Below, in pieces: positions 24,501 to 27,500 of a stretch of DNA of 64,000 bases (the stretch's first letter is position 1; each line of letters starts with the position of its first letter). The position numbers were made by a program. The stretch lies in the NCBI RefSeq assembly GCF_056712565.1, contig NZ_CM160072.1; one strand, written 5' to 3'.

Positions 24501-27500
24501 GACAATCAATCCAAAGCGCAGACGTGTCACGTTCAGTCCCAGCGAACGGGCTTCGTCGTCGGAAAGCGTGAGTAAATTCATGCGCCAGCGGAGAAAAAAC
24601 AGGGGCAAGGAGCCTATGAGAATGATCGGTGCAGCATAGCAGAGATCGCGTAAGGTCACGGTGGACAGCCCCCCCAGCAACCAGAAGGTAATTGACGGTA
24701 ACTGGGTATAAGGATCGGCCAGCGTTTTTATTAGCGATATCCCCGCTCCGCACAACGTTCCTAACGCAATGCCTACCAGCACCAGGGTTAAGATCGGATC
24801 GTGGCGGGTCACCCGACGCGTAATCAACCAGACGCCCGCGACCACCATCAGCCCGCCGCAAAATGCGTACAGCTGGATGTAAACAATGGATAATCCCCAC
24901 AGGATTGCCGCGCAGGCACCAAGTCCGGCACCGGCGGAGACGCCTAAAATATCCGGTGACACTAAGGGATTACGGAACATTCCCTGATAGGTGGTTCCGG
25001 CCCCTGCCAGCGCCGCGCCCAGAAACAGCGCAGCAAGAATACGCGGCACGCGGATTTGCCAGAAGACAATTTGTTCCTGCACAGGAACATTTTCTTGACG
25101 AAGAATGAGCGCCAGCAGTTGCTGCATATCGAGATGATAAGCCCCACTTACGGCGGCAAAAGTGATACTGATAGCTGCCAGCAGCAAAATACATCCGTTT
25201 ACGGTTCTCATTAGCTCGCCACCAATTTTTGATAGTCGGCGTCACTGAGTGAACAATGCCAGAACAGTTGGGCGTAATGCTGTATGTCACTTTTAAACTG
25301 GCGATTGATGGCGGGATCCAGCCAGGCGTGAAGTCTGCGTAATCCCAGAAGACGGTTGATTCCCGGCGGGGCATCCAGCCAGCCAAAGGGCAGGCCACTT
25401 AAAAATAAGATGCGTTGTTCCGCAACCGCTTTCACGCCCTGCCAGAGAGGATCACGACGAATAAAATCTGCAGTAACGGCCTCCTGAACCAGAATAATAT
25501 CCGGCTGCCAGCGCAGGAGATTTTCCATGGAAACCTGTGTCAGACCGTGGCGATCGGCTATTTGCGCGACGTTGTGCAAACCTAATAATTCCGCCGCCTC
25601 GGTATGCAACGAACCCTGTAAGCCCGTTTCCAGCCCTCGAGGACCGCGCGCAGCATAAAAGCTGAGATTAGCGGCGGGTGAGGTGGCGAATGCCTGAGCT
25701 TCACCAACGAAGCGGCTGGCGAGATTGGCTTGTTCTGCGGCGCGGTGCTCTTCGCCTAACGTTTTGCCAAGCGTTGTTAACTGTTCTGCTGATTGTTCCA
25801 GTTTCCCGTTAAGCAATAACCAGGGTATTTGTGTCTGTTCGCTAACCTGCCGTGCCTGGGAGATCCAGGTTTCATCCGTATTGCCGCAATCAACGACCAA
25901 ATCGGGATGTAACGCCATAAGCCCTTCCAGCGAGAGTGTGCTGGCGCGCCCGGCGAGTCGTCCCAGCCTGGGGAACTGGCGAATGTGCTCTGGCAATGGA
26001 ATTAATGCCTGACGGGCAAAATCAAAAGAGGAAAAACCGACCATTTTTTCTGGCGCGACAGCCAGCAATAGTAAATCGGCGGGCGCGCCTGCGCTGACGA
26101 TGCGTGTAATGTTTTGGGCTTCGGGAAGCGTCCGTGAGGCCCAGAATTTGACTGATTGTGCGAAGGACGGCAGATGATGCAGGAACAATGTCGACGCAAG
26201 AATCTGTGTAAACCTCCGTCTGGTTAGTGACATAAGTAATATCCTGATAATTAAAACCGCTATATACTTATACATATAGCGAAAAAGATCATGTTTGATG
26301 TCAAAATTTGTCTAAAGAGACAGAATGATTTGCTTGTTTCTTAAATAACACTTTGTTCCACAAGAAAATTGTCAGGGAGAATGGGGAGTGGGGGAAAATA
26401 TAAATAGAGGTGTAATGATTAACAAGTTGATAAAATAAAATTAAAATCTTCTCTAATAAAAGAAAATAAAGGCATAGACCGTAGAAAGAGTGGTATTTGG
26501 TATTTCGTGATGAAGAAAGAGCAATGCCAATTTTATGCACGTAATGGCATTGCTCGATATACAGTAAAGTTAAGGCGTAGGTTCCGCCTCTTTTTGTTTT
26601 AGCGGCTGTGTTGTTGATTCACTGAGTGGACGCGTCGCCGGAACATTGTCACACGGTTGCTCTTTCGGGCAGATCAAATCCAGCATTTTCAGCGTCACGC
26701 CATTGGTACAGCCAAAGCCATCCTGTAATGGATATTCGCCACCGCCGCCCCCTGTTCCGGTGGTGCTGACATCATATTTTTCCACCAGCTTTTTCTCCCG
26801 GTCATAGGTGTGCTGAACATTGGTCAGGAAGTGCCAGCTAATGTCCATCGCTACCTCTTTTTGCCCGTAGTTTTGTAATCCTTCAGTCGCGACCCACTGC
26901 AACGGTGCCCAGCCGTTTGGCGCATCCCATTGTTGCCCACTTTTCACCGACGTGGTGTTCAGGCCGCCGGGTTGCAGCAGATGTGTTTTCGTCGCCGTCG
27001 CCATTTTGCTGGCGCGATCTTTCGCTGCCGCATTGACGTACAGCGGGAACAGGGCGGCCGCGGTTAACTGATTGCGCACTTTATGACTTTTCAGGTCGTA
27101 ATCGGCATACCAGCCTTGTTGATCGTTCCACAGGTATTTTTCGATCCCTTTTTGACGGGCATTTGCCAGCGTTTCGTACTGGTTTGCCATCGCGTTATCT
27201 CCGATAGCTTTGCTGGCGCGGGCGAGGATTTTTTCCATTTTGAACATCAAGCTGTTCAGATCGACCGGTACGATGCTGGTGGTGCGTAAGGTGTTTAACT
27301 GCTGCGGATTGTCCATCCAGCGCGAGCTGAAATCCCAGCCAGACGCAGCGGCAGAGCGCAGGTCGCGGTAAATTTCAGTGGCAGGTCGATTCGGATTGCT
27401 TTTGGCAGTGGCAATATCTTCCACCCATGACTCTGGTCGTGGCGTATCGCGATCGTCCCAGTAGCGGTTGAGAAGGGTACCATCCTGAAGTTTTACAACG

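What the first reader, a model, noticed from the sequence alone, without database searches (positions are those of the whole stretch)
26234..26520. AT-rich promoter region of the accessory operon with an inverted repeat over the likely -10 region
The roughly 290 bp between the binding-protein start and the treA terminator are strongly AT-rich. An 8-bp inverted repeat CGCTATAT-N8-ATATAGCG (26258-26281) lies 25 to 48 nt upstream of the proposed start codon and overlaps TATA-like hexamers, as expected for a repressor operator. Further upstream, GTAATGATTAACAAGTTGATAAAAT (about 26412-26436) has loose Fur-box-like hexamers. No clean 19-bp Fur consensus is present, so metal regulation is only a hypothesis.
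Basis: seen in the sequence. Interest (0 to 1): 0.3.

Follow-up and report, generated by a model that had tools for sequence, protein, structure and literature searches.

The report
Molybdate-repressor (ModE) operator, not Fur
The inverted repeat in front of this accessory E. coli transport operon is almost certainly the binding site of ModE, the molybdate-sensing repressor. The operon is annotated as an iron transporter, but it is probably switched on by molybdenum shortage rather than iron shortage.

Summary
CGCTATAT-N8-ATATAGCG lies at 26258-26281, 25-48 nt before the ATG at 26233. The spacer has 30% G+C against 51% for the window.

An 8-bp repeat alone is not unusual here (P about 0.13 in shuffles). 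Its sequence is what matters. The 28-mer at 26256-26283 matches the E. coli ModE consensus ATCGNTATATA-N6-TATATANCGAT at 17 of 20 positions, as well as the K-12 modA, moaA, dmsA and napF sites (16-18). A matrix built from those four sites scores it 24.9 bits; the next best in 64 kb is 9.3.

The same box sits directly before the orthologous binding-protein gene in Escherichia, Citrobacter, Salmonella, Enterobacter, Serratia, Providencia and Shewanella. Where there is a gap, a second box precedes the TonB-dependent receptor gene. A box also precedes Haemophilus influenzae molA, whose operon is experimentally repressed by molybdate.

The operon encodes ModD and a permease closest to MolB, the molybdate importer. 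The box sits as close to the start codon as the modA operator does, which indicates repression by molybdate-bound ModE.

The Fur-like segment is at chance level and is not conserved outside E. coli. No experiment supports the ModE reading yet. I found no paper describing this operon.

The parts
26256..26283 (.). ModE-type operator, a 28-bp palindrome. The sense strand reads TTCGCTATATG-TATAAG-TATATAGCGGT.
   Evidence: It matches the consensus at 17 of 20 positions. It is the only hit in the window at 3 mismatches or fewer, and 0 of 100 shuffles gave a hit. It scores 24.9 bits with a matrix built from four K-12 ModE sites, and the next best in the window is 9.3. The box is conserved in position in all 23 related loci examined.
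26299..26304 (-). Candidate -35 hexamer TTGACA, 17 nt upstream of the CG of the operator.
   Evidence: Read from the sequence. A -35-like hexamer lies at the same 17-nt distance in E. albertii, Citrobacter, Enterobacter and Serratia, read directly from the sequences. Salmonella's proximal region is almost identical to Citrobacter's. This is inferred, with no mapped transcription start.
26273..26281 (-). Candidate -10 region inside the left half-site: CGCTAT with a 17-nt spacer, or TATATG with a 20-nt spacer.
   Evidence: None of the possible hexamers is a good sigma-70 match, so the exact -10 and start site are unresolved. Every candidate lies inside or abuts the operator.
26242..26245 (-). 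Shine-Dalgarno AGGA, 8 nt before the start codon.
   Evidence: Read from the sequence.
25211..26233 (-). First gene of the operon. It encodes a Tat-exported class III (FecB/BtuF-like) periplasmic binding protein, annotated as an iron ABC transporter substrate-binding protein.
   Evidence: It is only 25% identical to H. influenzae MolA.
24231..25211 (-). FecCD-type permease.
   Evidence: Its best solved relative is H. influenzae MolB (HI1471, entry 2nq2) at E 9e-65, ahead of FhuB, HmuU and BtuC.
23476..24234 (-). ABC ATPase.
22654..23466 (-). Class I SAM-dependent methyltransferase of unknown substrate.
21803..22657 (-). ModD, a homologue of quinolinate phosphoribosyltransferase.
   Evidence: It scores 504 bits against TIGR01334 modD, whose cut-off is 179.
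19807..21777 (-). TonB-dependent outer-membrane receptor, the last gene. Only 25 nt separate it from modD, so it has no separate control region in E. coli.
   Evidence: No solved structure matches it at E 1e-10 or better.
26519..26555 (-). treA terminator hairpin with 11-bp arms, followed on the sense strand by TTTCTTC.
   Evidence: It belongs to the accessory segment: homology with K-12 ends at the treA stop codon, window position 26569.
26412..26436 (.). No function is supported.
   Evidence: It matches the Fur consensus at 12 of 19 positions, which is chance level. It is conserved only within E. coli.

Best explanation
The inverted repeat is the operator of ModE, the molybdate-sensing regulator present in nearly all E. 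coli.

When the cell has enough molybdate, the ModE-molybdate dimer binds the 28-bp palindrome at 26256-26283. The palindrome covers the -10 and start region of the only plausible promoter, whose -35 TTGACA is at 26299-26304. It ends 22 nt before the start codon. Bound there, ModE blocks RNA polymerase and shuts off the six-gene operon. The operon encodes a binding protein, a MolB-like permease, an ATPase, a methyltransferase, ModD and a TonB-dependent receptor.

When molybdate is scarce, ModE leaves the DNA and the operon is expressed. This is the same logic and nearly the same geometry as at the modABC promoter.

Shown here: the sequence match, its statistical rarity, its positional conservation across genera, and the molybdenum-related gene content.

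Inferred: physical binding, the direction of regulation, and the exact transcription start.
For: 1. The consensus ATCGNTATATA-N6-TATATANCGAT is given in PMC545781. The same consensus, taken from footprinted RegulonDB sites, is given in PMC2700814. The window site matches 17 of 20 positions and is the only such site in 64 kb. None of 100 shuffles gave a hit.
2. The K-12 sites at modA, moaA, dmsA and napF match 16, 16, 17 and 18 of 20.
3. A matrix built from those four sites scores the window site 24.9 bits, against 9.3 for the next best. The tail probability is 1.7e-9 to 2.3e-8 per position. In leave-one-out tests the window site scores 21-27 bits and the held-out true sites 18-25.
4. The top-scoring or second-best site in each related locus lies directly before the orthologous first gene. 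This holds for Escherichia, Enterobacter and Providencia and for Citrobacter, Salmonella, Shewanella and Serratia.
5. A second box precedes the receptor gene wherever there is an intergenic gap. It reaches 29.8 bits in Providencia and 31.0 bits in Shewanella.
6. Across 23 sites the invariant columns coincide with specified consensus positions, whereas columns 5 and 24, which are N in the consensus, vary freely.
7. The operon contains modD, and its permease's closest solved relative is MolB.
8. H. influenzae has modD next to molABC and a box 28 nt before molA. There, molybdate represses molB 10-fold through an 'unknown factor' (PMC4031551).
9. modE is present in 5391 of 5426 complete E. coli genomes.
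10. The 28-mer ends 22 nt before the ATG. The modA site ends 17 nt before its ATG. This leaves no room for a promoter downstream of the box.
Against: There is no experimental evidence for this operon: no footprint, no expression data with or without molybdate, and no mapped transcription start.

The candidate -10 hexamers in E. coli are poor, so the promoter assignment is uncertain. ModE activates at some promoters (moaA, dmsA, napF), so the sign of regulation rests on position alone.

The binding protein is only 25% identical to MolA. The transported substrate is therefore not established, and molybdenum-related gene content is suggestive rather than proven.

The Providencia sites nearest the binding-protein gene score lower (14-22 bits). 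A few coding-region hits in the loci reach 17 bits.
Confidence: 0.88

Rival explanations
1. The repeat acts as an RNA hairpin in the operon's leader. It could be an attenuator or weak intrinsic terminator, or a stabilising 5' stem-loop, rather than a DNA operator.
For: On the sense strand the stem extends to 10-11 pairs through G-U pairs and is followed by GGTTTTAATTAT. The terminator scan flagged it. The E. coli and Citrobacter leaders fold better than shuffles, with z-scores of -2.6 and -3.1.
Against: - The T-run is absent in Enterobacter, Providencia and Serratia.
- Folding is no better than shuffles in E. albertii, Serratia, Shewanella, Providencia and Enterobacter.
- The third stem pair (positions 5 and 24) is complementary in only 12 of 23 sites. 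These are the free positions of the ModE consensus.
- Conservation is at the level of specific bases (TATAT, CG), not of pairing.
- Any palindromic operator forms a hairpin as a by-product.
- If transcription starts inside the box, as I recall for modA, the full hairpin would not be in the RNA.
Confidence: 0.05
2. The operon is iron-regulated by Fur through the AT-rich upstream segment at 26412-26436 or another Fur box, as the 'iron ABC transporter' annotation suggests.
For: The products belong to families that usually carry iron complexes: FecB/FecCD-type ABC transporters and a TonB-dependent receptor. The spacer is AT-rich, as Fur boxes are.
Against: - The best Fur consensus match is 13 of 19, and 20% of shuffles do as well.
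- In 19 orthologous loci no match reaches 15 of 19. The best matches mostly overlap the ModE box itself.
- The segment is not conserved beyond E. coli.
- Only a consensus count was used, not a calibrated Fur matrix, so weak Fur binding is not excluded.
Confidence: 0.04
3. ModE binds the box but activates rather than represses, as it does at moaA, dmsA and napF.
For: ModE is a dual regulator: the K-12 RefSeq record (NC_000913.3) annotates modE as a DNA-binding transcriptional dual regulator. The paper read describes activation at moaA. The E. coli -10 candidates are weak, so an activator could be needed.
Against: - The activating sites lie 72-197 nt from the start codons, whereas this box ends 22 nt from the ATG, like modA.
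- No promoter fits downstream of the box.
- In Providencia and Shewanella a good -35/-10 pair ends immediately before the box.
- Uptake systems are typically repressed by their substrate.
- molB in H. influenzae is repressed by molybdate.
Confidence: 0.05
4. The repeat is a chance palindrome in AT-rich, horizontally acquired DNA and has no specific function.
For: About 13% of shuffles of the spacer contain an 8-bp perfect inverted repeat.
Against: The specific sequence has about a 1e-5 chance of occurring in the spacer. It is retained at the same place across at least nine genera while the flanks diverge completely.
Confidence: 0.01

Closest known systems
ModE operator of the E. coli modABC promoter (K-12: CGTTATATTGTCGCCTACATAACG)
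   Same: Both have an 8-N8-8 palindrome of the CGNTATAT type. Both lie just before the first gene of a transport operon, 17 nt (modA) and 22 nt (here) from the 28-mer to the ATG. Both overlap the core promoter. The regulator and the expected logic are the same: repression when molybdate is sufficient.
   Different: This site controls a different, strain-variable operon with a TonB-dependent receptor and a type II (BtuCD-like) ABC importer, not the type I ModABC. It matches the consensus slightly better than modA does (17 against 16 of 20). It has not been footprinted.
Haemophilus influenzae molABC (HI1470-72), the type II molybdate/tungstate importer
   Same: The permease here is closest to MolB. 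modD is adjacent in both. A ModE-type box lies directly before the binding-protein gene in both. Molybdate represses molB 10-fold (PMC4031551).
   Different: The E. coli binding protein is only 25% identical to MolA and carries a Tat signal. The E. coli operon adds a methyltransferase and a TonB-dependent receptor. True MolA orthologues exist in Pectobacterium (64% identity), and those operons lack the receptor.
Fur-regulated TonB-dependent iron-uptake operons (fhu, fec, fep)
   Same: The gene families are the same: a TonB-dependent receptor, a FecB-like binding protein, a FecCD permease and an ATPase. The annotation is 'iron ABC transporter'.
   Different: There is no Fur box. There is a ModE box instead, and modD and a methyltransferase sit in the operon.

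Membership tests
E. coli-type ModE operator | Inverted repeat matching ATCGNTATATA-N6-TATATANCGAT | tested here: met
   It matches 17 of 20 specified positions. It is the only hit in the window and no shuffle produced one. Footprinted K-12 sites match 16-18 of 20.
E. coli-type ModE operator | Scores like known sites under a matrix trained on independent sites | tested here: met
   It scores 24.9 bits, against 27.8-30.4 for the training sites and 9.3 for the next best in the window. In leave-one-out tests it scores 21-27 bits and the held-out true sites 18-25.
E. coli-type ModE operator | Conserved at the same position in orthologous control regions | tested here: met
   Twenty-three loci from Escherichia, Citrobacter, Salmonella, Enterobacter, Serratia, Providencia, Shewanella, Pasteurellaceae and Pectobacterium carry it.
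E. coli-type ModE operator | The regulator gene modE is present in the organism | tested here: met
   modE is found in 5391 of 5426 complete E. coli genomes. It is not inside this 64-kb window, so presence in this exact strain is inferred.
E. coli-type ModE operator | Molybdate-dependent binding by ModE (footprint or gel shift) | not testable with these tools
   This needs purified ModE and the DNA fragment.
E. coli-type ModE operator | Molybdate- and modE-dependent change in expression of the downstream genes | not testable with these tools
   The only indirect support is that molB of H. influenzae, behind a similar box, is repressed 10-fold by molybdate.
Fur box | Good match to GATAATGATAATCATTATC that is conserved in orthologues | tested here: not met
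The best match is 13 of 19 (P 0.20). No orthologous locus reaches 15 of 19.
Intrinsic terminator or attenuator | Stable G+C-rich stem followed by a conserved U-run | tested here: not met
   The stem has only 3 G-C pairs and a 4-T run. The U-run and the folding advantage are not conserved.
Moco riboswitch or any other Rfam family | Match to a covariance model | tested here: not met
   Over 25900-26900 only chance-level hits appeared, with E-values above 5.
MolABC-type molybdate importer | Permease orthologous to MolB | tested here: met
   HI1471 is the best solved relative at E 9e-65, with the next at 1.8e-50.
MolABC-type molybdate importer | Binding protein orthologous to MolA | tested here: not met
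   It is 25% identical to MolA. The best solved relative is 4pag, not MolA. True MolA orthologues are 64% identical to each other.
MolABC-type molybdate importer | Binds and transports molybdate or tungstate | not testable with these tools
   This needs binding and uptake assays.

The most novel reading that the evidence does not exclude
This operon is carried by about 40% of complete E. coli genomes, including ST131, Nissle 1917 and O157:H7, and is annotated as an iron transporter. It may instead be a ModE-controlled, TonB-dependent pathway for acquiring molybdenum or tungsten under starvation.

In this reading the receptor and the divergent Tat-exported binding protein import a molybdenum-carrying organic complex rather than free molybdate. 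ModD and the methyltransferase then process the carrier in the cytoplasm. That would give ModD its first function. It would also identify an energised outer-membrane route for molybdenum in enteric bacteria.

The same analysis names ModE as the 'unknown factor' that represses H. influenzae molABC.
Probability: 0.35. Interest if true: 0.75.

Novelty: new member of a known kind. Interest (0 to 1): 0.5.

Why it matters
The operator is of a well-known kind, so the element itself is ordinary. What it controls is the interesting part.

- **Annotation.** A widespread accessory operon of pathogenic and commensal E. coli, named an iron transporter by homology, moves into the molybdenum regulon.
- **Open questions.** It gives a concrete, testable handle on three of them: how molybdenum crosses the outer membrane when scarce, what ModD does, and which factor represses the MolABC-type importers.
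- **Infection biology.** Molybdoenzymes such as nitrate, DMSO and TMAO reductases and formate dehydrogenases support gut and urinary-tract colonisation. A starvation-induced molybdenum scavenging system in ExPEC, EHEC and Nissle would therefore be relevant to fitness.

Tried and rejected
- **Rfam scan.** Nothing real was found in the spacer and its flanks.
- **LacI-family regulator.** A divergently encoded LacI-family regulator in Providencia first looked like the operon's own repressor. Its N-terminus and its neighbours, a 180-aa and a 452-aa gene, look like gntR-gntK-gntU. It is absent from the other genera, so I treated it as an unrelated neighbour. That identification rests on my recollection of GntR and was not tested with a family scan.
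- **Fur.** Rejected on the consensus count, the shuffles and the lack of conservation.
- **RNA hairpin or terminator.** Considered and downgraded.
- **Scan-predicted promoter.** The scan's - strand promoter, TTGTTA-17-TATATT at 26425-26397, lies in a stretch conserved only within E. coli, so I gave it little weight.
- **Direct repeat.** The 25-nt direct repeat at 26324 and 26414 (72% identity) was treated as chance.
- **Literature.** Searches for the operon returned nothing relevant. Terms covered ModD, TonB-dependent receptor, uropathogenic, guessed O157 locus tags, ModE regulon and molABC. Three key papers could not be read: Studholme and Pau 2003, Anderson 2000 and Tirado-Lee 2011. Prior in-silico mention of this site, for example in Studholme and Pau or in RegPrecise, therefore cannot be excluded.
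- **Transcription start.** It could not be fixed from sequence.
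Full report
**Setting**

The window is E. coli chromosome. The region is 100% identical to strain Z0117EC0054 and 99.8% identical to ATCC 11775 and many ExPEC strains. All genes discussed are on the - strand.

treA ends at 26570. Below it lies a six-gene operon:
- a Tat-signal class III binding protein, 25211-26233
- a FecCD-type permease, 24231-25211
- an ATPase, 23476-24234
- a SAM-dependent methyltransferase, 22654-23466
- ModD, 21803-22657
- a TonB-dependent receptor, 19807-21777

K-12 has ycgY in its place. 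Homology with K-12 stops exactly at the treA stop codon (window 26569) and resumes at 19830. The whole spacer, including the treA terminator hairpin at 26519-26555, therefore belongs to the accessory segment. The spacer is present in 2147 of 5426 complete E. coli genomes, including ST131, Nissle 1917, O145 and O157:H7.

**Checking the observation**

The spacer has 29.6% G+C against 50.9% for the window.

A perfect 8-bp inverted repeat with a short spacer occurs in 13% of shuffles of this AT-rich stretch. The repeat alone is therefore weak evidence.

**What the repeat is**

When I fetched relatives of the binding-protein gene, a palindrome of the form CGYTATAT...ATARCG sat 15-30 nt before the start codon in all of them. 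This held for Escherichia, Enterobacter and eleven Providencia loci. The flanking sequence was unrelated.

The shape matches the E. coli ModE consensus ATCGNTATATA-N6-TATATANCGAT. That consensus is quoted in PMC545781. PMC2700814 quotes it from footprinted RegulonDB sites.
- The window 28-mer at 26256-26283 matches 17 of 20 specified positions. It is the only such site in 64 kb, and no shuffle produced one.
- I fetched the four classical K-12 targets. Their best sites match 16 (modA), 16 (moaA), 17 (dmsA) and 18 (napF) of 20.
- A matrix built only from those four sites scores the window site 24.9 bits. The runner-up in the window scores 9.3.
- The exact tail probability is 1.7e-9 per position on a uniform background and 2.3e-8 on an AT-rich one. 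That gives about 1e-5 expected in the spacer.
- In leave-one-out tests the window site scores 21-27 bits and the held-out genuine sites 18-25.

**Conservation**

The same matrix finds its best or second-best hit of each 8-15 kb locus directly before the orthologous first gene:

| Organism | Score (bits) |
|---|---|
| Escherichia | 23-26 |
| Enterobacter | 26.6 |
| Providencia | 14-22 |
| Citrobacter | 28.6 |
| Salmonella | 27.3 |
| Shewanella | 25.7 |
| Serratia fonticola | 24.1 |

Where modD (or, in Shewanella, which lacks modD, the methyltransferase gene) and the receptor gene are separated by a gap, a second and often better box precedes the receptor gene. It reaches 29.8 bits in Providencia (ATCGCTATATAAAAATAAATATAGCGAT), 31.0 in Shewanella and 22.8 in Serratia.

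Over 23 sites the invariant columns are C3, T6, T8, T10, A21 and A23. G4, C25 and G26 are nearly invariant. Columns 5 and 24, which are N in the consensus, vary freely, and the spacer columns are on average less conserved than the specified positions. Within E. coli the two alleles of the box differ only at position 5, at position 11 and in the spacer.

**Link to molybdenum**

- The operon contains modD, at 504 bits against the TIGR01334 cut-off of 179.
- The permease's closest solved relative is H. influenzae MolB (HI1471), the type II molybdate/tungstate importer. It scores E 9e-65, well ahead of FhuB, HmuU and BtuC.
- I recovered the H. influenzae locus. It reads modA-like, modB, modC, modD, molA, molB, molC.
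- That locus has ModE-type boxes before the modA-like gene (21.4 bits) and 28 nt before molA (21.3 bits). The next best hit in the locus scores 10.6.
- MolA orthologues in another Pasteurellaceae member and in Pectobacterium also have a box, at 22.3 and 25.1 bits.
- Rice et al. 2014 showed that molybdate represses molB 10-fold and attributed this to an 'unknown factor' (PMC4031551). This is the only experimental datum bearing on boxes of this class in front of mol-type operons.
- modE itself is in 5391 of 5426 E. coli genomes.

**Mechanism**

The 28-mer ends 22 nt before the ATG, and those 22 nt contain the Shine-Dalgarno sequence. The promoter must therefore overlap the box or lie upstream of it.

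A perfect -35, TTGACA at 26299-26304, lies 17 nt before the CG of the box. A -35-like hexamer lies at the same distance in E. albertii, Citrobacter, Enterobacter and Serratia; Salmonella's proximal region is almost identical to Citrobacter's. In Providencia and Shewanella a good -35/-10 pair ends immediately before the box.

In each case bound ModE would occlude the -10 and start region. This is the modA arrangement, where the 28-mer ends 17 nt before the ATG. The activating sites at dmsA, moaA and napF lie 72-197 nt from their start codons.

I therefore infer repression by molybdate-bound ModE and derepression under molybdenum limitation. The exact -10 and start site are unresolved because the E. 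coli hexamers are poor.

**Rivals**

- **RNA hairpin or terminator.** The scan flagged the sense-strand hairpin with its T-run, and the E. coli and Citrobacter leaders fold better than shuffles. The T-run and the folding advantage disappear in other genera. The third stem pair is complementary in only 12 of 23 sites. Conservation is of specific bases, not of pairing.
- **Fur.** No orthologous locus reaches 15 of 19. The segment lies in DNA shared only within E. coli.
- **Other RNA families.** Rfam found nothing.
- **Local regulator.** The LacI-type gene next to the Providencia operons looks like gntR, with gntK and gntU beside it, and is probably an unrelated neighbour. I did not test this with a family scan.

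**What the operon transports**

This is not settled. The binding protein is only 25% identical to MolA, and its best solved relative is an uncharacterised protein, 4pag. True MolA orthologues are 64% identical to one another, and their operons lack the receptor and the methyltransferase.

The E. coli type is therefore a distinct, ModE-boxed variant: a MolB-like importer with a different binding protein, a TonB-dependent receptor, ModD and a methyltransferase. A reasonable but unproven reading is energised scavenging of molybdenum or tungsten, possibly as an organic complex.

**Novelty and score**

The element is a new member of a very well-known kind, and its mechanism is textbook. I found no paper that describes this operon or its ModE box. 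The most likely prior source, Studholme and Pau 2003, could not be read.

The consequence is of moderate interest. A common 'iron transporter' of ExPEC, EHEC and Nissle is probably a molybdenum-starvation system, and ModE is the likely missing regulator of mol-type operons. I score overall interest at 0.5. Confidence that the repeat is a ModE operator is about 0.88.

Noticed in passing
L007 11546-11573, L030 10757-10784, L031 11489-11516 and the other Providencia loci: A second, often near-perfect ModE-type box lies in the gap before the TonB-dependent receptor gene in Providencia, Shewanella and Serratia. This suggests a separately ModE-controlled internal promoter. E. coli has only 25 nt between modD and the receptor gene, and no such box.
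   Followed up: partly
L032 5903-5930 and 2877-2904 (H. influenzae contig): ModE-type boxes lie 28 nt before molA and before the neighbouring modA-like gene. modD sits between the two transporter gene sets. This would explain the published molybdate repression of molB by an 'unknown factor'.
   Followed up: partly
window 19807-19830 and 26569: Homology with K-12 resumes 24 nt inside the 3' end of the receptor gene and stops exactly at the treA stop codon. K-12 therefore keeps a remnant of the receptor gene, and its ycgY region looks like a replacement or deletion of this operon.
   Followed up: partly
L023 3455-4267 and 7370-9054 (O157:H7 F7508); L027 644-1549 (strain ST2747): In this O157:H7 strain the methyltransferase gene has an internal stop and treA is frameshifted. 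In ST2747 a deletion removes the whole control region and the 5' end of the binding-protein gene. The operon is decaying in some lineages.
   Followed up: no
window 26273-26275: An in-frame ATG lies inside the operator, giving a mechanical ORF of 354 aa (25211-26275). The annotated start at 26233 fits better because it has an AGGA ribosome-binding site 8 nt upstream and a Tat-type N-terminus, MSLTRRRF.
   Followed up: yes
L031 13556-14197 (Serratia fonticola): A gene for a MOSC-domain protein, a family linked to the molybdenum cofactor, directly follows the receptor gene.
   Followed up: no
window about 26480-26500; alignment A1 columns 92-98 and 157-161: The window carries a 7-nt tandem duplication (AATACCA) in the distal spacer that other E. 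coli lack. O157:H7 has a 5-nt insertion in a TTTTA repeat. This part of the spacer tolerates insertions and deletions, unlike the proximal 100 nt.
   Followed up: no
E. coli genome collection: Eight of the matches to this spacer are on records classed as plasmids rather than chromosomes.
   Followed up: no
window 20893; L005 12320; L012 12482: A conserved coding segment about 880 nt into the receptor gene scores 9-18 bits with the ModE matrix in several genera. This is probably a by-product of the encoded peptide, but it recurs at the same place.
   Followed up: no
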